Numbered from the stretch's first letter, positions 21,738 through 60,080 are shown. The stretch is 64,000 nucleotides of DNA from Candidatus Moraniibacteriota bacterium (GCA_027008775.1 JALVDV010000001.1:73934-137933); one strand, 5' to 3'. A program made the numbers and translations. Notes: generated by a model not told the origin, from the sequence alone.

Positions 21738-21884
21738 TAAAAAATTAACAAATCAAATCGCTACAAGCTCGCAGGGCAGAAAAGGTGGTGAGCAAATTCT
21801 TTATCTCTCTCCAAGAATAATTCACTTATGCCTTTTGCTTATTACCCTGCGAACTTGTGGCGATTTCTTAATCCAGCGAGAATT

Positions 21885-21904
21885 CCCCGCCTGTAAGGGC
21901 GGGG
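21885..21904. repeat. Solo GC-rich hairpin CCCCGCC-TGTAAG-GGCGGGG (REP-like, or tnpA-less derivative of the IS200-like element at 53.5 kb)
   Basis: Exact reverse complement of the hairpins at 53533-53552 and 54028-54047. Its flanks (ATAGATAC on one side, ARTTCTCGCTG on the other, after reverse-complementing) match the outer flanks of the left and right hairpins of that element. Confidence 0.7.
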
Positions 21905-21996
21905 GTATCTATTTCAACCAGACAAATCCCTTTTGTGAAAATGATGCCCAACACCAAAAACTTTTTCTCTCGCCAAGACAAAACCGGCGCAACTCT

Positions 21997-27806: not shown

Positions 27807-28148
27807 GGAAAACTTGACTAAACATTGAAAGGAGAAAACCCTAGATGAGTTCCTACTTTTTTATTATAACACAACAAAGAATAAATTTCCAAAAAACAAA
27901 ACATTTTATTAATCACCAAATTACCGGTGTCGATTGCAAATAAAAATGTCATACTTCATTACCAAATTAAAATGTCATACCCGGAGAAAAAGTTAAAAAA
28001 CCAAAAATAAAACATGTTCCACACAATAGATACGCGCCACACGCCAAAATAAAAAACAAACCTCTTAAGCCGACAACCGCCTCATTAACCAACGAGCCCG
28101 GACAAACAAAATCCCATTCTCAAAAAACCTCTCACAACACTAAAACGT

Positions 28149-28176
28149 ATTATGATATTATCAATAATATCATAAT
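28149..28176. repeat. 28-bp palindromic repeat ATTATGATATTAT-CA-ATAATATCATAAT, copy 1
   Basis: 13-nt arms are exact reverse complements around a 2-nt centre. One of 4 exact copies in the window. Confidence 0.85.
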
Positions 28177-28204
28177 AAAAGCTTCAACAACAGCAGGATT
28201 GGGT

Positions 28205-28232
28205 ATTATGATATTATTGATAATATCATAAT
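28205..28232. repeat. 28-bp palindromic repeat, copy 2 (opposite orientation, centre TG)
   Basis: ATTATGATATTATTGATAATATCATAAT, 28 bp after copy 1, ~210 bp upstream of ruvA. Confidence 0.85.
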
Positions 28233-28444
28233 GGGAGCATAACAGAAGATGATAGCGGAGAAATAAAAAGGATTGAAAAATTACAAAAAAGTTTGGATCC
28301 TCAATTGCTTGCTCACAATAAAATTTACAATAGAAAGTTGAGAAATAGTGACAATCATTTACTAAACAAAATACAACAAAGATTGAGTTAGCTAACAATT
28401 TATGCTATCATCCTAACATCAAGAAATTAATTCCGACAACTACA

Positions 28445-50089: not shown

Positions 50090-50111
50090 ATACAACATTA
50101 ATCTTACCTAT

Positions 50112-50150
50112 AGCTTCTCGCCCGTCAAGAGAGCGCTCCTCGCCCAAACA
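50112..50150 (-). other. Partial tRNA-Val-like duplicate (anticodon-region fragment)
   Basis: TTCTCGCCCGTCAAGAGAGCGCTCCTCGCCC resembles the D/anticodon segment of the adjacent tRNA (CTCTCGCACGTCAAGCGAGCGCTCTAACC) but cannot complete a cloverleaf. Confidence 0.3.
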
Positions 50151-50308
50151 TACCGTTCGGTACGGACGGGTAACCTACCGAACTAAACTAACTTCCCAAA
50201 ATAAATCAAACAATTTTCCGCCTATCATTTATCAATTAAAAATCCCAACAGCCCACCAAAAATCAACGTGGAAACAAGCATTGGAATTATACTACTGACA
50301 TCACCCCT

Positions 50309-50560
50309 TCAAACTGGAAAAGTGATTGGTAACAACGTCAAAACAACCAGCACAACTCCTTTGTAGATGCCTCTAATTTTCATGTCTGTCGTGGCCACCA
50401 AAAACCCAACGACTAACCAATGGAAAAAAGCAGAGAAATCAGCTTCCCACTCCAGTTTCATTAAAATCATCGATACAACATCCAGTGGATCAACCACCGC
50501 TCCCAAAAAAAGAGCTTTTTGATTTTTTCCATAAAGTAGCAATAAATAATTTTCAAACAA
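50309..50560 (-). CDS. Possible small membrane protein (83 aa)
   Basis: ORF with two hydrophobic segments; weak evidence. Confidence 0.25.
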   Translation of the reverse strand: MFENYLLLLYGKNQKALFLGAVVDPLDVVSMILMKLEWEADFSAFFHWLVVGFLVATTDMKIRGIYKGVVLVVLTLLPITFPV

Positions 50561-50914
50561 CTACTTAAGTCAACTATTCTCTGACTCGTTTATTCTATAT
50601 TTTTTTCCATTTTTTTGCAACCAGATCCCCACAATTTATCCCATTTTATTTGCCAAGCTTGTTTAACAATCAACTTCTAAATGAAGCAACATATCTTCAT
50701 GCAAATCCCGCAAATAATCAGTGAGCAAAATCCAACACAATCAACAAGAGTAACACTCAATCAATTTAATCGGTCAATCTGCATTTCCGAATCACCAAAC
50801 AACCAACATTTACCACCAAGTACCGTGATTAAATATAACTGAAAAACCTAAAAACAAAAGATATCACATATTCTCCAGTCACTTCCTCTTCCGCTATTAT
50901 AATTACCACCTTCC

Positions 50915-50942
50915 ATTATGATATTATCAATAATATCATAAT
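50915..50942. repeat. 28-bp palindromic repeat, copy 3
   Basis: ATTATGATATTATCAATAATATCATAAT, exact. Confidence 0.85.
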
Positions 50943-51012
50943 GGTTACGCTTACAGACAAACTCTTTTCCTCTTCCTCATTCGATCATAACTGTCATCAC
51001 CACTTCCACTAT

Positions 51013-51519
51013 CTATTTTTCAGTATCATAAAACAATACTTCACAAGCATATTTATCGCAAAATCTCAAAAAATCATCCTTTTTTATTTTCAAAGAAGCC
51101 GTATTCCGAAAAGGATGGAAATGAATATAGTCGGAAACCAAAATATCCTTGTCTATTATCAAAGGAATATTTTTAGCTCCGGGATAAATCAGTGCCAACG
51201 GTGTCACTGAGCCGGGACTAAGACCCAAATATTTCGCCAATCTTTCCTCAGAAGCAAAGCCCATTTTCCGATGTTCACCTAAAAACTCAGCCAAATGGGG
51301 TATATCCAAACGCTTATCGGCTCTCAGCACCAATAAATAATGCCTGCGACCTCTTTTATCACGCAAAAACATATTTTTACAATCAATTCCCATTTCATTT
51401 TTCTGGTAAAAATCTCCCGAGGCCTCACAAGTAGCAAAAGCGGGATGTTCAAATTTTTGATATTTTATATTCAAATCATCTAAAATTTTATACAATTTTT
51501 TTTCATATTCCTCATTCAT
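51013..51519 (-). CDS. YbaK/ProX-type aminoacyl-tRNA editing deacylase
   Basis: YbaK-domain features: CKNMFLRDKRGRRHYLLVL...YLGLSPGSVTPLAL. Confidence 0.7.
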   Translation of the reverse strand: MNEEYEKKLYKILDDLNIKYQKFEHPAFATCEASGDFYQKNEMGIDCKNMFLRDKRGRRHYLLVLRADKRLDIPHLAEFLGEHRKMGFASEERLAKYLGLSPGSVTPLALIYPGAKNIPLIIDKDILVSDYIHFHPFRNTASLKIKKDDFLRFCDKYACEVLFYDTEK

Positions 51520-51581
51520 TTTTTTGAATTTATCACTTAAAATTTTTAAATTAAATTTCAGAAGAAAAACCTTTGAAAAGT

Positions 51582-52322
51582 CTAGTTTGTCGAAACATAT
51601 TTTAAAAGAACAATGCCAGCAAAGCGACCGGTTTGATTGTTTTCGGCGCGACGATAAGAAAAGTAATTTTGGTCACAGTGATTGCAAGTTTTGCTGACAA
51701 ATATATTTTCCTTTTTAACGCCGACTTTTAACAATTGGTCTTGGTTTAATAAAGGTAAATCAAGATTAGTTTCGTTATAAATATATTTTTTACTCCACCG
51801 TTTTTCAAATCGCTGGATAGTATTTTGATCTATTCTATAACAATCCTTTTGAATAGATGGTCCTAAAAACACCTGAATATCTTGAGTATTGGAATTGTAT
51901 TCCTTTTGTAACTTTAAAATCATTTTTCCGGCAATATTTAAAAAACTACCCTCTCGTCCGGCGTGAGCAACGGCAATTACTTTTTGCCTTGGATCATAAA
52001 ACAAAATCGGAATACAATCAGCTACCAGAACCATCAAAGCCAGTCCCGGTTGAACGGTAATTAAGCCATCGGTTCCCAAAGACTCTCCGCTTTGAGCAAC
52101 GCTTGCAATTTTATCAGAATGCACCTGATTCATCCAAACGAAATTTTCCTGATCAACTCCCAGTTCTTTCGCCAACAACCTTCTATTTTCCAAAACATCT
52201 TCTCTTTTATCTCCAACATGTAATGCCAGGTTCAAAGTATCGTAAGGTGATTCACTCACCCCGCCCCACCGATTTGTAAATCCCGCCACCACTGTCTTCG
52301 TTTCCAAAACTTTTTGAAACAT
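51582..52322 (-). CDS. pgeF: Purine nucleoside phosphorylase / laccase-domain protein PgeF (YfiH family)
   Basis: Cu-oxidase_4/YfiH signature: NRWGGVSESPYDTLNLALHVGD...VLVADCIPILFYDP...AVAHAGREG. Confidence 0.85.
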   Translation of the reverse strand: MFQKVLETKTVVAGFTNRWGGVSESPYDTLNLALHVGDKREDVLENRRLLAKELGVDQENFVWMNQVHSDKIASVAQSGESLGTDGLITVQPGLALMVLVADCIPILFYDPRQKVIAVAHAGREGSFLNIAGKMILKLQKEYNSNTQDIQVFLGPSIQKDCYRIDQNTIQRFEKRWSKKYIYNETNLDLPLLNQDQLLKVGVKKENIFVSKTCNHCDQNYFSYRRAENNQTGRFAGIVLLKYVSTN

Positions 52323-52369
52323 AAATCAATCTTTTAAAGTCTTTTAATTTAATATCTATTTTTAATTAT

Positions 52370-52560
52370 CCATCTTTTAGCTATCTGTCTCTCAGTTGCC
52401 AGACATCTTTTAATTATTCGTCTATTGGTTGTCTGTCTCTTAGTTGTCTATTTGTTAATCGTCTGTCTCCTAGTTGTTTGTCTCCTAGTTATTTGTCTTT
52501 TAATTGTTTATCTTTTAGTTACCTATCTCCTGACTATCCATCTTTTAACAACTTTTACTC
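52370..52560. repeat. Degenerate tandem array (~9 units of ~15-17 bp, consensus TTGTCTRTCTCYTAG)
   Basis: Read directly: ...TTGTCTGTCTCTTAG TTGTCTATTTGTTAATCG TCTGTCTCCTAG TTGTTTGTCTCCTAG TTATTTGTCTTTTAA TTGTTTATCTTTTAG TTACCTATCTCCTGAC... The spurious 65-aa ORF here reflects the repeat periodicity. Confidence 0.7.
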
Positions 52561-52577
52561 AACACTCTTTAACCTCT

Positions 52578-52613
52578 TACTATCATATAAGGTTGTGTAG
52601 TTGTATGATAGTA
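52578..52613. repeat. 36-bp hairpin repeat TACTATCATA-TAAGGTTGTGTAGTTG-TATGATAGTA, copy 1
   Basis: 10-bp exact inverted arms with a 16-nt loop. One of 4 identical copies (also at 56697, 58280, 59044). Confidence 0.85.
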
Positions 52614-52702
52614 TTTCGATAGTATTTTGGTTGGATTTATTATTTTTTAGCCTATTTTACCAAATGCTTGTCATAGCCTTATTTTATTAATTCCTCCCTT
52701 AC

Positions 52703-53060
52703 TTACTCAACAGCTTGCGAAACATCTTGCGGAACATCTTGCGGAATTTGAAAGCCCTTCTGCGGATAAATTTTTATTCTTTGTAAATCACCGACCATAA
52801 TGTTAACCACTCTGTCAAAAACATTGAAACCGTTTTCTTCCGGATAATCGGCAAAGGATATTTGCGAAGAAGTAACCGTTATTTCCACTCCCCGCTCCGA
52901 CCAAAAACAACTTCGCTCCTCGCTCCGCCACTCGAGTATCATGACTGCCCAATACCAAAATCAAATCCGCTTTTTTTAATTTGTGATTTAGATGATAATA
53001 ATCCCAAATTCTCCGCGCCAGTTTTTTTATTTTCTTTTTATCTTTAATGGTATTATTCAT
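52703..53060 (-). pseudogene. Frameshifted DUF218 (YdcF/SanA-like) gene
   Basis: Two overlapping minus-strand ORFs in different frames (52815-53060 with ADLILVLGSHDTRVAERGAKLF; 52703-52942 with the C-terminal part) together span one DUF218-like protein, indicating a frameshift near 52900-52940. Confidence 0.45.
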
Positions 53061-53379
53061 ATCGTTTTTTTATTTTTTTAATTTTATTTTCCAAGGCCGT
53101 TTTTATATCAACGGCCGACACCTCAGCCAACAACAAAGTGGTGATTATAACATCCGCCAATTCATTCGGTAAATTGTTTTTCACTTTCATTTTTGACAAT
53201 TTTTCTTTTCGCTGGTCATTATCCAAAGCTAAAATTTCCGCGCACAACTCGCCAACCTCCTCATTAAGTTTGACCGTTCGCGGTAAAACAATCTCCCGTG
53301 AGGATGATCCTTGACCGTGTTTTTTCACCAATCGCTCACTTTCCGATTTAATAAATTGCAACAATTCTTGAAAGCTCAT
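53053..53379 (-). CDS. MazG-like nucleotide pyrophosphohydrolase (all-alpha NTP-PPase)
   Basis: EEVGELCAEI...ELADVIITTLLLAEV are the MazG core helices with metal-binding EExxE/D. Confidence 0.65.
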   Translation of the reverse strand: MSFQELLQFIKSESERLVKKHGQGSSSREIVLPRTVKLNEEVGELCAEILALDNDQRKEKLSKMKVKNNLPNELADVIITTLLLAEVSAVDIKTALENKIKKIKKRYE

Positions 53380-53524
53380 ATAGTTTTAAAATTTATAAAG
53401 TTATCCATTTTTACCCCAAAATTCACTCTTTGCTTTTCTATAATTTTGATACGGCTTACCTTGATGCTCTTTTTTTAACAAATTGAAATCTTGTCTGGCA
53501 CATTCGTCTTTCTTTAAAATCTCC

Positions 53525-54058
53525 ATAGATACCCCCGCCCTTACAGGCGGGGTTCTTTTTATATTACAAGCTGCGCTTGTCCCGCATCTTCCTCGCCTTG
53601 TTTACGGACATATTCTTGAATTATTTTTTCATTGATACCGACAGTGGATACAAAATATCCTTTTGACCATATTCCTTTGTTGTCCCAATACACTTTTTTG
53701 AGAAACTTGAATTTGTTTTTTAAGCTTCTGCCAGTGTTGGATTTTATTGTTTCCACAACTTTACTTATGGCATATTTGGGGGGAATTATCATATGTAGAT
53801 GAATATGGTCTTTGTCGATTCCCATTTCAATATAAATCCGGTCCGGATAATATTTATTCACTTCTTGGAGTTTTATACGGAGACAGGAATCAACTCCTTT
53901 GACCAGTATTTTCCTTCTGTATCTGGTTGGCCACACTATGTGATATTGGGTTCCGTATACACTATGGTTTGCTTTGTATAGTTTCATATCCTCCATTATA
54001 CAGGAAGATGCGGGATTTGGCTCTCATCCCCGCCCTTACAGGCGGGGAGTTCTCGCTG
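53525..54058 (-). mobile_element. IS200-like element (tnpA only) bounded by direct-repeat GC hairpins and internal inverted repeats
   Basis: CCCCGCC-CTTACA-GGCGGGG occurs at 53533-53552 and 54028-54047 in the same orientation. Subterminal inverted repeats TCCCGCATCTTCC (53581-93) and GGAAGATGCGGGA (54003-15). The GC-rich ends contrast with the AT-rich host sequence. Confidence 0.8.
53559..53996 (-). CDS. tnpA: IS200/IS605-family Y1 (HUH) transposase TnpA
   Basis: YHIVWPTRYRRKIL, HUH motif HIHLHMI, and catalytic-Tyr region GYFVSTVG; 145 aa, typical of IS200 TnpA. Confidence 0.9.
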   Translation of the reverse strand: MEDMKLYKANHSVYGTQYHIVWPTRYRRKILVKGVDSCLRIKLQEVNKYYPDRIYIEMGIDKDHIHLHMIIPPKYAISKVVETIKSNTGRSLKNKFKFLKKVYWDNKGIWSKGYFVSTVGINEKIIQEYVRKQGEEDAGQAQLVI

Positions 54059-54413
54059 AATTAAATATATGAAACTCATCAAAACGAGAATCTTTAATAA
54101 CCAGCATGATATCAACAGATTCTAAATCAGGTGGAATATTTTTTTCTTTGAATATCGCCAACCCCTCATTCTTACCAACAACCCAGACGTCCTCATGTTC
54201 GGCAACAAATACTTCTTTAAACTTTTCTATCGCTGATTGGAAATCACTTCCTCGCACTCGCACGGTTATATCCAAATCTTTTTTGGTTAACATTCCGGAA
54301 ACCGCCGAACTACCCACATGTTCAACTTCCGCCTCCGGTACCAATTCTAAGATTTTGTTTTTTATTTTTGCATATTCCGCCTCAATCACTTCTTTGCATA
54401 AGATGAGATACAT
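54036..54413 (-). CDS. GrpB-family protein (UPF0157, nucleotidyltransferase-like)
   Basis: VEHVGSSAVSGMLTKKDLDITV matches the GrpB motif HVGSTAVPGL.AKPIIDI. Start at internal ATG (MYLILCKE). Confidence 0.6.
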   Translation of the reverse strand: MYLILCKEVIEAEYAKIKNKILELVPEAEVEHVGSSAVSGMLTKKDLDITVRVRGSDFQSAIEKFKEVFVAEHEDVWVVGKNEGLAIFKEKNIPPDLESVDIMLVIKDSRFDEFHIFNSARTPRL

Positions 54414-54461
54414 CTTGGACACCCCTAAAAAAGATATTATGCTAAAAAAGGTTAACCAATA

Positions 54462-55532
54462 ATGTATCTCAAAAAAATGAAAACCAAACAAGTGGGATAT
54501 TATCTGATTCCCAATATTAAAATATCCAAAACAAAATACATTCGTTGGAAAAAGATAGCTAAAACATTAAATCTATCCCAGAAAGCCAGACAAAGATTGG
54601 ATTGGATAATATACTATTACACCAAAGCCAATCAGAACGCCTCTCTAACTTGCAAGCACTTTGGTATTAGCAGATCCAAATGGTATTTCTGGATAAATAA
54701 GTTTGCTGAAACCAACTTGAGAACTCTAGAAAATAATCCCACAGTTCCTTTTAAAAAAAGAGAAAAAGAATACACTGATTTACAATATGAAAGAGTGGTA
54801 AAATTAAGAAGACAATTTATCAAATACGGAAAGGTAAAACTGCTTAAAAAATATCAATCATTATACCCGGAGGATAAAAACATCAGCCAATGGAAGATTC
54901 AATGTATTATTCAAGTATCAGGAATCTATTATCACCCTAAAAAAGCCTTTAAAACGGCTAATAAACGAAGAAAAGCCATTCAGAAGAAAAAGATAACCGA
55001 ATTGAAAAAGAAACCTAAGAGTGGTTATCTAATAGCTTTGGATACAATTGTTAGAATAATCAACGGTCAAAGAAGATATATCATCACCGCCATAGACACT
55101 TATTCCAAAATAGCTTATGCCAGAATGTATAGTTCTCACAGTTCAATACAAGCTGAAGATTTTTTAATGAGATTAAATTATCTCCTAAATGGCAAGATGG
55201 AAAACATTCTAACCGATAATGGCTCAGAGTTTCAAAAACATTTTGAAAAAGCTTGTCAAAGATTAAACTTAAAGAGATACTACAGCCGAGTGAGACAACC
55301 TAAGGATAATCCCGTTTGTGAAAGATTTAACAGAACTTTAAATGAAGAATTCATCCAATTGGGCAATTTAACAACAGATGTAAAAACTTTTAACAGTAAT
55401 TTAACTGATTGGTTGATTGAATACAACTTTCACAGACCTCATCAAGCTTTGGATTATATGACTCCTATAGAATTTACTCAAAAATATGCCAAAGTGTCCA
55501 AGAGGTGGTCATCTAATACATTCTTTGATTGA
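54462..55532 (+). CDS. DDE-type integrase/transposase (rve core; IS481/IS3-like) with N-terminal HTH
   Basis: rve-core features: ALDTIVRIINGQRRYIITAIDTYSK...LTDNGSEF (second D)...NPVCERFNRTLNEE (E)...HRPHQAL. Confidence 0.85.
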   Translation: MYLKKMKTKQVGYYLIPNIKISKTKYIRWKKIAKTLNLSQKARQRLDWIIYYYTKANQNASLTCKHFGISRSKWYFWINKFAETNLRTLENNPTVPFKKREKEYTDLQYERVVKLRRQFIKYGKVKLLKKYQSLYPEDKNISQWKIQCIIQVSGIYYHPKKAFKTANKRRKAIQKKKITELKKKPKSGYLIALDTIVRIINGQRRYIITAIDTYSKIAYARMYSSHSSIQAEDFLMRLNYLLNGKMENILTDNGSEFQKHFEKACQRLNLKRYYSRVRQPKDNPVCERFNRTLNEEFIQLGNLTTDVKTFNSNLTDWLIEYNFHRPHQALDYMTPIEFTQKYAKVSKRWSSNTFFD

Positions 55533-55611
55533 TTCCTGCGGAACAAAATTACATATTCTTTCTCGCATAGTTTTAAGAACTTATAAAATCTCCAACAAAT
55601 TATTTTCACCT

Positions 55612-55639
55612 ATTATGATATTATCAATAATATCATAAT
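55612..55639. repeat. 28-bp palindromic repeat, copy 4
   Basis: ATTATGATATTATCAATAATATCATAAT, exact. Lies 80 bp after the transposase stop, between convergent genes. Confidence 0.85.
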
Positions 55640-55667
55640 ACTCAAATATTTTTCAAATTTGCAATTA

Positions 55668-56558
55668 TCAAATTTTAATCATCTCCAACAACAATTTCTT
55701 CTTTTCCTCCAAATCTCCTTTGATATATTCTACCTGATGAAACAAAATATCCCAACCCAACAAACCGATGGCTCTATTTGCCAAAACCAATTTAACCTCC
55801 TCTCGGTTTTCGTTAGGTAAATATTTGTTCAACCAGTCAGAAATTTTATTATAAAATTCCTGAGTATTTTTTGTTTTTAAGAAAGCAAAATCAATCGCTC
55901 GCAAAAAATCATAATAGCCCCGCCCGACTCGTGGAACAATATTTAAATCCAACAAATATAATTCTTCACCGGAAACAATAATATGATCGCCAATAATATT
56001 ACCGTGCGCCCAACCGAAAAACTCTTCTTCTTTTTCATTAATCACGGTTTGCATTTTATCGGCAATATTTTTAATGTCATCATACCGCAACAAACCAGCT
56101 TCCACAATCGGTCCGCCCCAAGTCAAAATAGAACCCATCGTCCACCTTTCACCGTCTTTTCGCAAATCACCCACCCTTTCCGCTTGCAATAATCTATCAA
56201 TAACCTTTTGATAATCATCGGCTATTCTTTTGCTTTGTTCAATGACCCAATCCGGATTTCCATCAATAAACTCATTCAGACTATCTCCGGCAATTTCTTC
56301 CATTAAAATCATTTCTTTGTCCGCTTTAATGATTGTCGGAACCTTAAAACTCAATTCCCTTTCCATTTCTTTGGCGATTTCAAAAAGTTTTGTTTGTTGC
56401 GGTTCAATTCTTTCCGTTTTTAAAATATATTTTTTACCGGTCTTGTCTTCAACCCGAGCAACACCGGATTTATTCCGGAAAAACCCCTTTTCCACAACTC
56501 GCAAATCATTTTCTCGCGCAATTTGCTCAACTGTTTTTTTCTTGGTTTTTGATGACAT
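55668..56558 (-). CDS. Phosphotransferase enzyme family protein (APH/choline-kinase-like kinase fold)
   Basis: Kinase-fold catalytic loop WAHGNIIGDHIIV (cf. APH HGDLHPGN) and LLDLN (DFG-equivalent D); size 296 aa. Confidence 0.6.
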   Translation of the reverse strand: MSSKTKKKTVEQIARENDLRVVEKGFFRNKSGVARVEDKTGKKYILKTERIEPQQTKLFEIAKEMERELSFKVPTIIKADKEMILMEEIAGDSLNEFIDGNPDWVIEQSKRIADDYQKVIDRLLQAERVGDLRKDGERWTMGSILTWGGPIVEAGLLRYDDIKNIADKMQTVINEKEEEFFGWAHGNIIGDHIIVSGEELYLLDLNIVPRVGRGYYDFLRAIDFAFLKTKNTQEFYNKISDWLNKYLPNENREEVKLVLANRAIGLLGWDILFHQVEYIKGDLEEKKKLLLEMIKI

Positions 56559-56696
56559 AATTTTAAGACTTAATAATTAACTATCTAATAATTAACCATT
56601 GTAGGTCATAAACAATTAGCGTAAACATATTTTACCCCGCAACACTCTCCAACCCTATATCACCACCCCATAACACCACACGACCACACAATCCAA

Positions 56697-56732
56697 TACT
56701 ATCATATAAGGTTGTGTAGTTGTATGATAGTA
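56697..56732. repeat. 36-bp hairpin repeat, copy 2
   Basis: Identical to 52578-52613. Confidence 0.85.
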
Positions 56733-57147
56733 TTTTGTTTTTTAATTATATTTTTCCAGTGATTTCTTGCTCCAATTTGTTTGAAAATTTCCCGTAAAAA
56801 ATTTAATCGTTCTTCACCTCTCTTTTGTCCTTGCTGGACATACAATTCATCCGAATTTATCCGATAAAAATTTTAACTTTATTTCAAACTCTATTTGTAA
56901 ATTATATTTTGCTTTATCTTAGATTTTACCGTTAATTTTTTCTCCCAAATTTTATCTGACGTGTTTCCCAACATCAATCTTCTTACAAATTCTTGCACTA
57001 TTTCTTCTCGTTAAAACAAAACCAATAGCCATACCTATCACTCCGAGAGCGTCCAGTTTGTCCACGTCAAACAAAGTTTACGCTTTTTTTGCTTTTTGGC
57101 TTGTTGCCCGTTCTATATCTGTGCGCGACAATAAGCATTTATACATC

Positions 57148-57531
57148 TTATCTTTCTACCACTTCTACTAAATTTCCACTGCAATCTTTTAAAAAAATAT
57201 ATTTTAATATTTTTCCTTCGGTAATGTCTTTATAGATCTCTATTTTTTTCTTTTTTAATTTATTTTTAAATTTCTCTAAATCAGAAACAGAAAAAGCAAA
57301 ATGATTTATGCCAATAGTTTTTATATCTTTTTCCAAATCTTTCTTGTATTTAGGTAAATCATTAAATTTTCTAAACCAAAAGATTTCCAAGATAATATTA
57401 CCCTTCAATAAATAAATTTCCATTTCATCATCTTTGTACTGCTTAAAGATTTGCAAACCAAAAATATCTTGATAAAATTTCAAGTCCTTTTTTATATTTT
57501 TACTTGTAATTGAGATATGATGAATTTCCAT
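57148..57531 (-). CDS. VOC family protein (glyoxalase/bleomycin resistance/dioxygenase fold)
   Basis: HHISITSKNIKKDLKFYQDIFGL...GINHFAFSV are the VOC beta-alpha-beta-beta-beta module motifs. Confidence 0.6.
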   Translation of the reverse strand: MEIHHISITSKNIKKDLKFYQDIFGLQIFKQYKDDEMEIYLLKGNIILEIFWFRKFNDLPKYKKDLEKDIKTIGINHFAFSVSDLEKFKNKLKKKKIEIYKDITEGKILKYIFLKDCSGNLVEVVER

Positions 57532-57545
57532 ATCCTATACGTTTT

Positions 57546-57962
57546 TTATTTAACGGTTTTCAAAAACTCCTCTATTGTTCTGTATCTCTCTTGAAAAATC
57601 AAATATAAAGTTTCCGGCTTTTCTGGCTCGCCGATCAAAATCAATGGTTTACCCAATCCGTAAGCAATTCCCGCCTCAATATGAACAGCATTTCCAGCCG
57701 GCAACAGAACAATAACTTTCTCGGCATTTTTTAACGCTCGTAAATCTCTTTTAAATATTTTCCAATAATATTTGTCCTCATAAAAATTTTCCACCGCTTC
57801 AAATTTTTCCATATGTTTTTCCGGATTAATATCCGGATCGTTTTCATCCACCGACAAGTCACAAAAATTATAACAAGATTTCCCTCGTCTCCTCAATCCA
57901 AAAACCAATTTCTCTACATTTTCTTTGTTTCTAAATTTTCCTAAAACAGTATAGTCAGTCAT
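57546..57962 (-). CDS. Nucleoside 2-deoxyribosyltransferase-like protein
   Basis: VLLPAGNAVHIEAGIAYGLGKPLILIG matches the NDT family catalytic Glu region (GTAFELGYA.A.GKPV). Confidence 0.55.
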   Translation of the reverse strand: MTDYTVLGKFRNKENVEKLVFGLRRRGKSCYNFCDLSVDENDPDINPEKHMEKFEAVENFYEDKYYWKIFKRDLRALKNAEKVIVLLPAGNAVHIEAGIAYGLGKPLILIGEPEKPETLYLIFQERYRTIEEFLKTVK

Positions 57963-58279
57963 AGTAATTATTTTTACCTATTCCTACCTTCTGCCATATA
58001 TATATTCTTATTTTATTTTGAATAGATATTCCATTTCTACAGGAAAGAAATGTTCGCCGGTTAAATCTTATCGCATTTTGTTTTTTATTACAAAACATCA
58101 TGCTAATTTTCAAAATCACTCAAAAAATCTAAAACTTTCTTCTTTCAAATTTTTTATATCCCAAACCTCTACATCCTAAGCTCATATTCAAACCTCCATA
58201 TGCTAACCTCACGTTTAAATTCACAATTTACAACCATCCAGCCACAGCTATTCATAACTCACAAAATCATCAAACCACT

Positions 58280-58315
58280 TACTATCATATAAGGTTGTGT
58301 AGTTGTATGATAGTA
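58280..58315. repeat. 36-bp hairpin repeat, copy 3
   Basis: Identical; 53 bp downstream of the TrpR-like gene stop. Confidence 0.85.
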
Positions 58316-58367
58316 AAATTCATTTTTTACTTGTTTAATTTGATCTGTTTGTTTAAATTCGAGCCAA

Positions 58368-58790
58368 CTATAATCCCAGCAATCTTTTTAAAAATCTATG
58401 CTGAGGATACTTATCTAATAATCCCGTATATTCATATTTATCAGCTCTTCCCTCTTTTTTTCTGATCCGCTGATTTTTACGTTTCATCCAATTAGCCAAA
58501 ACTCTCCTGTAGGCATTGTCCCGAGCATTCATCCAGTGCTCAATCCCATTAATTGTATTATAACTTACCTTCATATTTTTTCTTATTTCATCGTAAGTTT
58601 TACCTTCAATCAATTGCTTTGCCACCTGTATCCTACGCGCTAACATTAAAGATTCACTGGGCGTCAATAATCCAATCAAAAAATCAATTGTGTCTGTTTT
58701 TGTTTTTAATCCGTACACAATATCAAAAAGATCCCCCACTAACTCCATTCTTTCCTGTTTAGGTATGGAGCTTACTTTTACTTTCGCCAT
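58368..58790 (-). CDS. TrpR-like / YerC-YecD family DNA-binding protein
   Basis: FLIGLLTPSESLMLARRIQVAKQLIEGKTYDEIRKNMKVSYNTINGI is the TrpR/YerC HTH signature. Confidence 0.65.
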   Translation of the reverse strand: MAKVKVSSIPKQERMELVGDLFDIVYGLKTKTDTIDFLIGLLTPSESLMLARRIQVAKQLIEGKTYDEIRKNMKVSYNTINGIEHWMNARDNAYRRVLANWMKRKNQRIRKKEGRADKYEYTGLLDKYPQHRFLKRLLGL

Positions 58791-59043
58791 ATTATTATTT
58801 CTATTGTTAAATAATTATCAATCTAAATTAAATGGATACAAAGCAATTCAAACAAATACAAACAAAGCAAATACGGATAAATAACAATGATATGATAAAA
58901 ACATAATAAAGATACAATAAAAAATAGTCAAAAATGAAAGTAAAACAAAATAAAGTAAAATTAAAACAAAATAAAGTAAAACAAAGTAAGACAAAAATAA
59001 AAATAAACAAATAGACAACCCCAATATTTTACTATTATAACCT

Positions 59044-59079
59044 TACTATCATATAAGGTTGTGTAGTTGTATGATAGTA
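59044..59079. repeat. 36-bp hairpin repeat, copy 4
   Basis: Identical. Confidence 0.85.
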
Positions 59080-59270
59080 TTGTTACGATTATAATATAAT
59101 GTTTTATCGTGAAAGTCAAAAATTTTGAAATCTGCCTGCTTGCTACTTTTTCCTCTTTATCCATTAACAATCCCTCTCTTATTCGCTTACCAACATCATA
59201 TTCCCACCACTCAATACTTTTTTATTATCCGCCAACAAGCACTCCTTCCCGCTGATGAATGAAAATCTCA

Positions 59271-60080
59271 CTAAACCAACTCCCCTTTCAAAAATTTTTT
59301 CCTCTTTCTCTCATCCATTCTTTCAATGGCGTAACGGAGAGTGGTGCGGGGAATTTTATTGTAATTTTTAATCAAAAATTGTTCCACTTGTTTTTGCGCT
59401 TTTTTACCTTCATCTTTCTTGTTTATAAACCCACCCCGTTGGTTTCCTTTAGATACACGAGCAGATTTCCTGCCACCTTCTCCCAATTTCCAACACTCCC
59501 TCAACATCCACCCCACCGCCTTGTGTATTAAATCCTCTTTATCCGCTAATAATTTCCTTGCTAAACGCAAAGTTAAATCTATTTTTCCATTTTTAATAAA
59601 AGCCCAAGAAGCGATAACGGCAATCCGCCTATCCCACATTGACGAGGAATTAACTAATTCTGTTAAAATACTTCTCGGCTTTAGCCTATCAAAAACCGCT
59701 CGTCCCAAAATATAGTGCGCCGACAAATCAACCAAATCCCAATTATTTACCCACCCTTTATTTCGCAAATAGAGATTAACGATTTTTTTCTGTTTCAGAC
59801 GATTTCCACTTTTAATCACCTTCTCATTTTCCTCAACCAAAACCAGCAACGCCAACAATCGCTCTTCATGTACTTCTGACCGCAAAAGCTTTAGCAAATC
59901 TTTATCTATCAATCCAACAAACCGCTTGGCTATCTTCCGGAGATCCGGTACTCTTACTCCAATAAATTTATCCTTCTTCTCGCCCTCTTCCGTGATAACT
60001 CTAAAGAAACGCTGATAGTTTTTCTTTTGTTTCTGGGAAATATATTTAACTAATTCTTCCCTGATTTTTTTAACCGCCAT
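59271..60080 (-). CDS. DNA alkylation repair enzyme (AlkD-like HEAT-repeat glycosylase family)
   Basis: AlkD/PF08713-like features: VRVPDLRKIAK...LLALLVL...SSSMWDRRIAVIASWAFIKNGK...HKAVGWMLRE. Confidence 0.7.
   Translation of the reverse strand: MAVKKIREELVKYISQKQKKNYQRFFRVITEEGEKKDKFIGVRVPDLRKIAKRFVGLIDKDLLKLLRSEVHEERLLALLVLVEENEKVIKSGNRLKQKKIVNLYLRNKGWVNNWDLVDLSAHYILGRAVFDRLKPRSILTELVNSSSMWDRRIAVIASWAFIKNGKIDLTLRLARKLLADKEDLIHKAVGWMLRECWKLGEGGRKSARVSKGNQRGGFINKKDEGKKAQKQVEQFLIKNYNKIPRTTLRYAIERMDERKRKKFLKGELV

What the first reader, a model, noticed from the sequence alone, without database searches (positions are those of the whole stretch)
52578..59079. Four 100%-identical copies of a 36-bp hairpin element (TACTATCATA-N16-TATGATAGTA) confined to a 6.5-kb accessory stretch
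Copies at 52578, 56697, 58280 and 59044 are all 36/36 identical, with short conserved 5' context (YTTAC). All sit in intergenic regions of a minus-strand gene array, some 50-190 bp downstream of stop codons. They are AT-rich and lack a clear U-tract on the coding strand, so they are not classical terminators. Such identity and clustering suggest one of three roles: a protein- or RNA-binding site used repeatedly in the island (for example an operator for the adjacent TrpR/YerC-like regulator), a mobile miniature element, or a recombination site delimiting gene cassettes. Each copy borders a single-gene unit, reminiscent of cassette arrays.
Basis: seen in the sequence. Interest (0 to 1): 0.65.

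Follow-up and report, generated by a model that had tools for sequence, protein, structure and literature searches.

The report
Operator sites of a TrpR-like regulator
The four identical 36-bp "hairpins" are most likely the DNA binding sites of the neighbouring TrpR/YerC-like regulator in an uncultured Moranbacteria (CPR) genome. Versions of the same element flank that regulator gene in every related genome examined, so this is a probable, still unvalidated regulator-operator pair rather than a mobile element or terminator.

Summary
There are four exact 36-mers at 52578, 56697, 58280 and 59044, with none expected by chance. All are intergenic and lie upstream, in the sense of the genes, of minus-strand genes: the yerC/TrpR-like gene itself, an NDT-like/glyoxalase pair, a 296-aa gene, and pgeF.

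In 13 distinct Moranbacteria genomes and one strain variant, the yerC homologue carries a matching element both upstream and downstream (26/26 flanking intergenic regions against 7/188 others).

Copies are identical or nearly so within a genome. They differ between genomes, always preserving dyad symmetry.

The elements parse into 3-5 six-bp boxes (TAYYWY/AAYYWY) in an 8-bp register, with the last one or two boxes inverted. They grow or shrink by whole 8-bp units, recalling TrpR half-sites spaced 8 bp apart.

Arm mismatches show no G·U bias and the core flips orientation in 5 instances, which argues against an RNA hairpin.

There is no terminator signature, no TIR/TSD, no linked recombinase and no Rfam hit.

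Best reading (about 0.6): these are multi-box operators of an autoregulated TrpR-family repressor controlling a small local gene set.

This is a new variant of a known kind and of moderate interest. Binding and ligand are untested.

The parts
59039..59079 (-). Element E1 is the 36-mer at 59044-59079 plus a fifth inverted box (AAGGTT in the sense of the genes). It lies 253 bp upstream of the yerC-like start codon and 191 bp after the DNA_alkylation gene. In the sense of the genes it parses as tac TATCAT ac AACTAC ac AACCTT at ATGATA gt AAGGTT.
   Evidence: The position is conserved in L058, L059 and L061, and it forms an invariant block amid diverged flanks.
59091..59119 (-). Sigma-70-like promoter TTGACT-17-TATTAT ending 12 bp upstream of E1. 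If it is used, E1 would sit at about +5 to +40.
   Evidence: 10/12 match, the joint top-scoring site in the scan of this region. The same motif is conserved in L058, and as TTGATT-17-TACTAT in L061. This is a consensus match only; the TSS was not mapped.
58368..58790 (-). yerC/TrpR-like regulator gene (140 aa) with a TrpR-fold core and a conserved C-terminal extension of about 40 aa (LLDKYPQHRFLKRLLGL).
   Evidence: Pfam PF01371 scores 44.7 bits against a cut-off of 27. TIGR02531 scores 41.6 against a cut-off of 42.2. PDB sequence hits are 3frw, 3g1c and 3kor. The AF2 model has pLDDT 87.7, and Foldseek hits to YerC-type and TrpR structures give target-normalised TM 0.73-0.79.
58280..58315 (-). 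Element E2 lies 52 bp after the yerC stop codon and 317 bp upstream of the NDT-like gene.
   Evidence: A copy directly downstream of yerC is present in all 13 genomes.
57148..57962 (-). Candidate target operon downstream of E2: a 138-aa protein with a weak nucleoside 2-deoxyribosyltransferase-like hit (57546-57962) and a glyoxalase/VOC protein (57148-57531).
   Evidence: The same 138-aa gene follows yerC and its elements in L071.
56697..56732 (-). Element E3 lies 138 bp upstream of the 296-aa gene.
   Evidence: The position is conserved in L058 with one substitution, C17T.
55668..56558 (-). Candidate target gene downstream of E3: a 296-aa protein of unknown function, with only a weak kinase-like (Bud32) hit.
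52578..52627 (-). Element E4 is the 36-mer at 52578-52613 plus a partial duplicate of its left arm (AAATACTATCG, 11-nt period) directly upstream in the sense of the genes. It lies 255 bp upstream of pgeF.
   Evidence: the tandem GATAGTATTTC x1.9 at 52607-52627. The position is conserved in L058.
51013..52322 (-). Candidate target genes downstream of E4: pgeF/YfiH (Cu-oxidase_4; 51582-52322) and a YbaK-like tRNA-editing protein (51013-51519).

Best explanation
The 36-mers are double-stranded DNA operators for the neighbouring YerC/HisR-like, TrpR-fold regulator (58368-58790).

Each element is an array of 6-bp boxes (TATCAT, AACTAC, AACCTT, then inverted TATCAT) with 2-bp spacers, giving an 8-bp register, and is capped by tac/gta.

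Inferred mechanism: several regulator dimers bind in tandem, as TrpR does on half-sites spaced 8 bp apart. They would cover about 30-40 bp at or just downstream of a sigma-70-type promoter and so repress transcription. The targets would be the regulator's own gene (E1) and the adjacent genes (E2-E4), under control of an unknown small-molecule co-repressor.

Shown here:
- exact repetition of the element;
- its invariant linkage to yerC on both sides across genomes;
- purifying selection on the whole 36 bp;
- the box and 8-bp modular architecture;
- the TrpR fold of the protein.

Inferred, not shown:
- that this protein binds these sites;
- that binding represses transcription;
- that a ligand exists.
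For: 1. Linkage. In 13 distinct Moranbacteria genomes (YerC identity 45-100%), both intergenic regions flanking yerC carry the element (26/26), against 7 of about 188 other intergenic regions. Fisher p = 2e-27.
2. Selection. Window and L061 share 35-36/36 positions at E1 and E2, although the regulators are only 83% identical and the flanks have diverged.
3. Architecture. 24 of 26 distinct element types parse into 3-5 boxes in one 8-bp register, with the first box forward and the last inverted. L003 and L066 have perfect 4-box palindromes and L062 has a 5-box site. The L074 upstream and downstream copies differ by exactly one 8-bp unit, as do the 28-bp and 36-bp forms.
4. Precedent. The TrpR mechanism uses GNACT half-sites with 8-bp spacing. 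HisR (the B. subtilis YerC protein) has palindromic operators with cacT...Agtg ends, and about half of hisR genes are autoregulated (PMC9413887). Our sites end in (c/t)ACTA...TAGT(g/a).
5. Protein. It matches PF01371 and has a TrpR/YerC fold. There is no paralogue in the window.
6. Position. In compact relatives the element ends 13-74 bp before the next ATG. E1 directly follows a conserved TTGACT-17-TATTAT motif.
7. Symmetry at the DNA level. Arm mismatches are 9 G·T, 9 A·C and 19 other, so there is no wobble bias. The asymmetric core is inverted in 5 instances.
8. Recognition helix. Residues vary in step with the outer box (SYN..: TATCAT; SYQ/A/..: TACCAT/TACTAC). This is a small, phylogenetically confounded sample.
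Against: - No binding or expression data exist; the link is by association only.
- The sites are 28-36 bp long, far more than the 20-bp TrpR/HisR operators.
- Copies are exactly identical within a genome, whereas operators of one regulon usually vary.
- The protein falls 0.6 bits short of the YerC/YecD equivalog cut-off and has an uncharacterised C-terminal extension.
- In the window species the sites lie 138-317 bp from the start codons, with other promoter-like matches in between.
- The genes downstream of the sites differ between genomes and share no single clear pathway.
- The core orientation is biased (21 forward to 5 reverse, p = 0.002), which a purely symmetric operator does not predict.
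- The genome-wide copy number in this organism could not be measured.
Confidence: 0.6

Rival explanations
1. The element works as an RNA hairpin in the 5' leaders of the downstream genes, acting as a 5' stabiliser, a processing or attenuation signal, or a protein-binding RNA site.
For: If the TTGACT-17-TATTAT promoter is used, E1 is transcribed from about +5. The sense RNA folds at -7.5 kcal/mol (z = -4.7), and homologues also fold. The arms co-vary between genomes. Orientation is biased towards the sense form, 21:5.
Against: - The stem is A/U-rich with a 16-nt loop and is only marginally stable. The antisense strand folds better (-12.3 kcal/mol).
- Non-Watson-Crick arm positions show no G·U preference (9 G·T, 9 A·C, 19 other), and they include A·A.
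- The 'loop' is conserved as boxes. In some copies it becomes part of a perfect 34-36-bp palindrome.
- Five instances are inverted relative to the gene.
- Some copies carry extra half-sites beside them.
- There is no Rfam match.
Confidence: 0.12
2. The element is itself a promoter, or a promoter-proximal element read by RNA polymerase or an alternative sigma factor, and is not a repressor site.
For: It lies 13-74 bp upstream of start codons in compact relatives. The right arm reads as an extended -10 in some genomes (TGGTAAAAT in L066, TGGTAATAT in L071, TGATAGTAT in L003 and window E3).
Against: - It is restricted to the yerC neighbourhood rather than spread over the many other promoters in 64 kb.
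- Three of the four window copies lack the -7 T (TAGTAA), and several genomes have no -10-like right end.
- Dyad symmetry and inverted instances are not expected of a promoter.
- No sigma-factor gene is linked to it.
Confidence: 0.1
3. The sites bind the YerC-like protein or another protein for a non-regulatory, structural purpose, such as looping or insulating the yerC locus, or parS/matS-like chromosome organisation.
For: The sites bracket yerC on both sides whatever gene follows. Copies are identical within a genome, as with parS or KorB-type sites (the parS/KorB comparison is from the analyst's own knowledge, not a tool result). There are tandem arrays upstream of yerC in L066-L068.
Against: No partition or condensin loading genes are linked. 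There is no GC-skew switch in the window. The sites sit where operators would sit. The protein family is known only as metabolite-responsive repressors.
Confidence: 0.08
4. The element is a mobile miniature element (MITE/REP-like) or a recombination site bounding gene cassettes.
For: Copies are identical, gene content between copies varies across genomes, and two transposase genes lie inside the stretch.
Against: - Similarity ends within about 43 nt, with no TIR or TSD.
- All four positions are conserved in strain L058, which lacks both transposases.
- The copies flanking yerC are mostly direct, not inverted.
- No conserved integrase or recombinase is present.
- There is no GTTRRRY core, by inspection of the sequence.
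- Only one exact-arm copy occurs in the species-representative genome holding L003.
- There are none in viral contigs.
- No metagenome hit shares the window's loop.
Confidence: 0.03

Closest known systems
HisR (YerC of Bacillus subtilis) and its operators in Firmicutes (PMC9413887)
   Same: Both are small TrpR-fold regulators matching PF01371. The best solved-structure matches are YerC/HisR-type proteins (3g1c, 3frw, 3kor). The sites are palindromic with cacT...Agtg-like ends. Sites occur upstream of the regulator's own gene.
   Different: - HisR operators are single 20-bp palindromes upstream of his biosynthesis and transport genes, with histidine as co-repressor.
- Here the sites are 28-36 bp multi-box arrays. 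They flank the regulator on both sides and are identical within a genome.
- No his genes are present in the loci examined.
- The protein is 140 aa with a conserved C-terminal extension, and it scores just under the YerC/YecD equivalog cut-off.
E. coli TrpR and its trp/aroH/trpR operators (PDB 1tro, 1trr)
   Same: The fold is the same (target-normalised TM 0.74-0.79). Half-sites contain ACT and are arranged in an 8-bp register. TrpR is known to bind in tandem (title of 1trr; 'GNACT half-site and eight base-pair spacer'). TrpR is autoregulated.
   Different: Sequence identity is only 17-20%. TrpR operators are about 18-20 bp and built on CTAG. The ligand-binding residues were not examined here, and no tryptophan genes are present in the loci examined. 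The number of boxes (3-5) and the direct-plus-inverted arrangement differ.
REP/REPIN and MITE-type intergenic palindromes
   Same: These are also short intergenic palindromes that are identical within a genome and differ between genomes.
   Different: Those are dispersed in tens to hundreds of copies and are tied to a RAYT or transposase. Here there are a few copies clustered around one regulator gene, at positions conserved across species, with no transposase linkage.

Membership tests
TrpR-family (PF01371) regulator with cognate operator | The regulator has the Trp-repressor domain and fold. | tested here: met
   PF01371 scores 44.7 bits against a cut-off of 27. The AF2 model (pLDDT 87.7) matches 3kor, 3g1c, 3frw, 1trr and 1tro with target-normalised TM 0.73-0.79.
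TrpR-family (PF01371) regulator with cognate operator | The operator has dyad symmetry, with ACT-type half-sites in an 8-bp register. | tested here: met
   The ends are (c/t)ACTA...TAGT(g/a), and 24 of 26 element types parse into 6-bp boxes with 2-bp spacers. The 8-bp spacing of TrpR half-sites is as stated in PMC9413887. The length of 28-36 bp exceeds the canonical 18-20 bp.
TrpR-family (PF01371) regulator with cognate operator | A site lies upstream of the regulator's own gene (autoregulation). | tested here: met
   This holds in 13 of 13 genomes.
TrpR-family (PF01371) regulator with cognate operator | The protein binds the site in a ligand-dependent way and represses transcription. | not testable with these tools
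   This needs EMSA or footprinting and expression data.
YerC/YecD = HisR equivalog (TIGR02531) | The score reaches the curated equivalog cut-off. | tested here: not met
   41.6 bits against a cut-off of 42.2. It is borderline, and the protein has an extra C-terminal region of about 40 aa.
YerC/YecD = HisR equivalog (TIGR02531) | The regulon consists of histidine biosynthesis and uptake genes, with 20-bp cacTTTA-N6-TAAAgtg sites. | tested here: not met
   Genes next to the sites are NDT-like, glyoxalase, pgeF, Ham1, PRA-PH, HD, Ser_hydrolase and others. No his operon appears in any locus. The sites are 28-36 bp.
Intrinsic (Rho-independent) terminator | A G+C-rich stem followed by a U-tract on the transcribed strand. 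| tested here: not met
   None of the 6 terminator-like sites in 51500-59400 overlaps an element. The stem is A/T-rich, and the sequences that follow in the sense of the genes are GTAAG/GTATT.
MITE / REP-like mobile palindrome | Terminal inverted repeats with target-site duplication, many dispersed copies, and presence/absence polymorphism. | tested here: not met
   The repeat is limited to about 43 nt. Positions are conserved in L058, L059 and L061. Copies cluster around yerC. The whole-genome count for this organism was not obtainable.
Integron attC / cassette recombination site | An adjacent tyrosine-recombinase integrase, attC sites with GTTRRRY cores that are variable in sequence but conserved in structure, and sites at cassette 3' ends. 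| tested here: not met
   No integrase is present. The only recombinase genes (rve and Y1 transposases) are absent from strain L058, which keeps all four sites. No GTTRRRY core is present (GTTGTGT and GTTGTAT, read directly from the sequence).
Known structured RNA (Rfam) | A match to a curated covariance model. | tested here: not met
   There is no match at the elements, either at gathering scores or at E<=1.

The most novel reading that the evidence does not exclude
The YerC-like protein and its multi-box sites form a self-contained, lineage-wide module of Moranbacteria that is more than a simple metabolite repressor. Tandem or tetrameric binding, possibly via the conserved C-terminal extension, would bracket the regulator gene on both sides. 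The site would expand by 8-bp units. It would be copied in front of newly recruited nucleotide-housekeeping and detoxification genes (MazG/PRA-PH, Ham1, HD, NDT-like, PgeF). This would give one of the few definable regulons in CPR bacteria, sensing a ligand other than Trp or His.
Probability: 0.15. Interest if true: 0.65.

Novelty: new variant of a known kind. Interest (0 to 1): 0.45.

Why it matters
To my knowledge, transcriptional regulation in CPR/Patescibacteria is almost uncharted, because these organisms are largely uncultured and have few regulators.

This work gives a regulator-site pair that is recognisable from sequence alone and conserved across a class-level lineage. The grammar is clear: 6-bp boxes in an 8-bp register, in 3-5 units. 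That gives a directly testable handle (EMSA with one small protein and a 36-mer) and a way to predict a regulon in metagenome-assembled genomes.

It would also extend the TrpR/HisR family to longer, modular operators and to a regulon with no amino-acid biosynthesis genes in the loci examined.

If the protein does not bind the site, what remains is an ordinary conserved intergenic palindrome of unknown role.

Tried and rejected
- **Public scans for the arms.** Scans allowing a free 14-18-nt loop gave 3 species-representative genomes and 53 metagenome contigs. Almost all were unrelated hairpins with other loops. Only L003 (Moraniibacteriota) was homologous.
- **Viral contigs.** A scan with the core returned 0 hits.
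- **Rfam.** Nothing at the elements, either at gathering scores or at E<=1.
- **PADLOC.** No defence families among 8 proteins of the stretch.
- **Promoter scan.** Promoter-like matches are only 1.5x the shuffle expectation in this AT-rich DNA. Only the conserved TTGACT-17-TATTAT motif next to E1 was used, and cautiously.
- **C-poor leaders after each element.** I first suspected a special feature. It is explained by a genome-wide coding-strand bias: CDS are 10-15% C and leaders 6-9%.
- **oriC/DnaA-box idea.** Rejected. There is no GC-skew switch, and the boxes lack the CCACA core except in one copy.
- **First box pattern (WAYCWY).** It was too narrow and missed the window copies. The relaxed pattern WAYYWY recovered them, together with the D3 family.
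- **Right arm as a universal extended -10.** Rejected. The -7 T is absent in many genomes.
- **A yerC paralogue to explain the D3 palindromes.** None found in the window.
Full report
**1. Observation**

The pattern TACTATCATA-N16-TATGATAGTA occurs exactly four times in the window, even when 3 mismatches are allowed. The copies are at 52578, 56697, 58280 and 59044, all as the same 36-mer. None occurred in 100 shuffles.

Repeat extension gives a 43-nt family, so similarity stops about 7 nt beyond one end. All four copies are intergenic in an array of minus-strand genes.

Read in the sense of those genes the element is TACTATCATACAACTACACAACCTTATATGATAGTA. Its positions are as follows.

| Copy | Next gene downstream | Distance to its start | Distance after preceding stop |
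|---|---|---|---|
| E1 | yerC/TrpR-like gene | 253 bp | 191 bp |
| E2 | 138-aa NDT-like gene + glyoxalase | 317 bp | 52 bp |
| E3 | 296-aa gene | 138 bp | 415 bp |
| E4 | pgeF + ybaK-like | 255 bp | 201 bp |

No copy overlaps a terminator-like site. Clustering of all four within 6.5 kb of 64 kb has p of about 0.004.

**2. Organism and locus**

Homologues of the 140-aa regulator are nearly all from Candidatus Moranbacteria/Moraniibacteriota. The same protein is encoded on contigs of MAG GCA_026992875.1 and on related assemblies.

Strain variant L058 lacks both transposase genes that lie inside the stretch: the rve-type gene at 54462-55532 and the IS200/IS605 Y1 TnpA at 53559-53996. It nevertheless keeps all four elements at the same positions, with two single-base variants.

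The stretch is therefore a conserved neighbourhood (WecG ... DNA_alkylation - yerC - ... - PgeF - YbaK - tRNA-Val - Ser_hydrolase - Maf - GluRS) carrying some variable small genes and two recent IS insertions. It is not a mobile island.

**3. Comparative evidence**

I fetched the DNA around yerC homologues from 12 further genomes, with regulator identity of 45-90%.

In every one, yerC has a palindromic element in both the upstream and the downstream intergenic region. Copies within a genome are identical or nearly so. This gives 26 of 26 yerC-flanking intergenic regions, against 7 of about 188 other intergenic regions in the same loci (Fisher p = 2e-27).

The gene that follows the downstream copy differs from genome to genome: NIF3, Ham1, PRA-PH, HD, Ser_hydrolase, WecG, NDT-like. 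The element is therefore tied to yerC, not to a particular neighbour.

L061 has a regulator 83% identical to the window's. It carries 35/36 and 36/36 identical copies at the E1 and E2 positions while the flanks have diverged. That indicates purifying selection on all 36 positions, including the 'loop'.

**4. Anatomy**

Across genomes the arms change but stay complementary:
- TACTATCAT/ATGATAGTA
- CACTACCA/TGGTAGTG
- ACTACTA/TAGTAGT
- TTTTACCAT/ATGGTAAAA
- GTCC/GGAC

The interior keeps CAACTAYA and/or CAACCTTATA motifs.

Parsing 26 distinct instances shows one grammar. There are 3-5 boxes of 6 bp (TAYYWY or AAYYWY) with 2-bp spacers, giving an 8-bp register. The first box is forward and the last one or two are inverted. 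The array is capped by cac/tac ... gtg/gta.

- The window element reads tac TATCAT ac AACTAC ac AACCTT at ATGATA gt. E1 adds a fifth, inverted AACCTT box.
- L003 (downstream copy) and L066 carry perfect four-box palindromes.
- The L062 upstream copy has five boxes.
- The L074 upstream and downstream copies differ by exactly one 8-bp unit, as do the 28-bp forms (L062, L064, L065) and the 36-bp forms (window, L003).

The supposed loop is thus part of the site, not a spacer.

**5. DNA site or RNA hairpin?**

As RNA, the sense strand folds at only -7.5 kcal/mol with a 16-nt loop. The antisense strand folds better, at -12.3 kcal/mol.

At the 9 outer arm positions of the 26 instances, the non-Watson-Crick pairs are 9 G·T, 9 A·C and 19 others, including A·A. 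There is no wobble bias on either strand.

The asymmetric core is inverted relative to the downstream gene in 5 instances (L064 x3, L065, L070) and fully palindromic in 4. There is still a bias towards one orientation, 21:5 (p = 0.002).

Some copies have extra partial half-sites beside them: E4 and the L061 upstream copy. Rfam gives nothing. Taken together, these points favour recognition of duplex DNA by a symmetric oligomer.

**6. The protein**

The protein matches PF01371 (44.7 bits against a cut-off of 27). It scores just under the YerC/YecD equivalog cut-off (41.6 against 42.2). By sequence it matches the YerC-type structures 3frw, 3g1c and 3kor.

An AlphaFold2 model (pLDDT 87.7) superposes on those structures and on E. 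coli TrpR. The TrpR matches include 1trr, the tandem-binding half-site complex (TM 0.73-0.79 normalised on the target).

Beyond the TrpR core there is a long helix (residues 89-116) and a conserved C-terminal helix, LLDRYPQHRFLKDLLGL in the family consensus. I suggest, without evidence, that this could mediate dimer-dimer contacts on the longer sites.

**7. Comparison with what is known**

YerC of B. subtilis is HisR, a histidine-responsive TrpR-family repressor. It has 20-bp palindromic operators (cacTTTAnnnnnnTAAAgtg), and about half of hisR genes are autoregulated (PMC9413887).

That paper also summarises the TrpR mechanism as binding to GNACT half-sites with an eight-base-pair spacing.

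The Moranbacteria sites share several of these features: the (c/t)ACT...AGT(g/a) ends, the dyad symmetry, the 8-bp register and the autoregulatory position. They differ in four ways:
- they are 28-36 bp long, roughly a 20-bp site plus one or two 8-bp units;
- they flank the regulator on both sides;
- they are identical within a genome;
- they sit next to genes unrelated to histidine or tryptophan.

Many of the neighbouring genes are nucleotide-housekeeping enzymes (NDT-like, MazG/PRA-PH, Ham1, HD, PgeF), but the set is heterogeneous.

**8. Relation to promoters**

In compact relatives the element ends 13-74 bp before the next start codon. It must therefore overlap or abut the core promoter.

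In the window, the joint best sigma-70-like match in the scan of this region (TTGACT-17-TATTAT, 59119-59091, minus strand) ends 12 bp upstream of E1. The motif is conserved in L058 and L061. That would place E1 at about +5 to +40, a typical repressor position.

The right arm looks like an extended -10 in some genomes but not in others, so the element is not simply a promoter. TSS positions are inferred, not mapped.

**9. Rejected readings**

- **Mobile element or cassette site.** There is no TIR or TSD, the positions are conserved, no recombinase is linked, and the IS-free strain keeps all copies. Only one exact-arm copy is present in the representative genome holding L003. There are none in viral contigs.
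- **Terminator.** There is no G+C-rich stem or U-tract.
- **Origin-related site.** There is no GC-skew switch.
- **Defence island.** There are no PADLOC hits.
- **C-poor leaders.** They reflect a genome-wide coding-strand bias.

**10. Verdict**

The best explanation (confidence about 0.6) is a set of multi-box operators of an autoregulated YerC/TrpR-like repressor that also controls a few adjacent genes. Binding, repression and ligand are inferred.

The remaining probability is spread over four rivals: an RNA-level role (0.12), a promoter element (0.10), a structural DNA-protein role (0.08) and mobility (0.03).

This is a new variant of a known kind. It is of moderate interest, mainly because it offers a concrete, testable regulator-site pair in CPR bacteria.

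The main limits are the absence of experimental data, no whole-genome copy count for this organism, and a comparative sample of 13 genomes.

Noticed in passing
window 28148-28177, 28204-28233, 50914-50943, 55611-55640: There is a second palindrome family, TATTATGATATTATCAATAATATCATAATA, with 0 expected by chance. It consists of four TATTAT boxes in the same 8-bp register (forward, forward, inverted, inverted) as the finding, and reads as an extended -10 (TGATATTAT) on both strands. Two copies sit between an AhpD-like gene and ruvA. One sits after ybaK, ahead of a long non-coding stretch and tRNA-Val. One sits upstream of GrpB and is conserved in strain L058. It could be a related operator or a bidirectional promoter. 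No second yerC-like gene is present in the window.
   Followed up: partly
window 53525-55532 (GrpB remnant 54036-54413): Two IS insertions absent from strain L058 truncate the GrpB gene at both ends (125 aa left of 166; 98% identity over the shared 111 aa). One is an rve-type transposase at 54462-55532 (+), which also separates GrpB from its upstream palindrome. The other is an IS200/IS605 Y1 transposase at 53559-53996 (-), flanked by CCCCGCCCTTACAGGCGGGG hairpins at 53533 and 54028. A third copy of that hairpin end lies at 21868-21912.
   Followed up: partly
window 50090-51012: About 920 bp between the ybaK-like gene and tRNA-Val(GAC) has no convincing ORF and no Rfam match even at E<=1. It starts with a D3 palindrome. 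It could hold an unannotated RNA or be spacer DNA.
   Followed up: partly
window 52405-52548 and 58931-59018: The unusually long leaders between the elements and their genes are filled with low-complexity tandem repeats (15/45-nt and 10-21-nt periods). In relatives the same spacers are only 13-74 bp, so the window species has expanded them. In strain L058 the sequence in the E1 leader is interrupted by a short run of N.
   Followed up: partly
L070 8433-8510: The element downstream of yerC in this relative is split by a G+C-rich palindromic insertion of about 50 bp (CTGCCTCGCCGGCTCGCC...GGCGGGCAGGCGGG), apparently a small inserted element inside the site.
   Followed up: no
L066 9665-9932; L067 1174-1395; L068 5014-5235: Closely related strains carry two or three tandem copies of the element, with about 80-240 bp of repeated flank, upstream of yerC. 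The copy number of upstream sites is therefore polymorphic.
   Followed up: no
window 58368-58490 (C-terminal 40 aa of the regulator): All Moranbacteria YerC-like proteins share a C-terminal extension ending in LLDRYPQHRFLKDLLGL. It is absent from HisR/TrpR proteins, which are under 100 aa. It is predicted to be helical but with lower confidence (pLDDT 60-77).
   Followed up: partly
L001 4031-4066, L002 5269-5304 and many metagenome loci (L004-L056): The same 10-bp arms (TACTATCATA/TATGATAGTA) occur with unrelated loops in other phyla, often as longer perfect palindromes. One example lies upstream of a small XRE-type HTH gene in a Pyrinomonadaceae MAG. These may be operators of unrelated regulators; only L001-L003 were inspected individually.
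   Followed up: no
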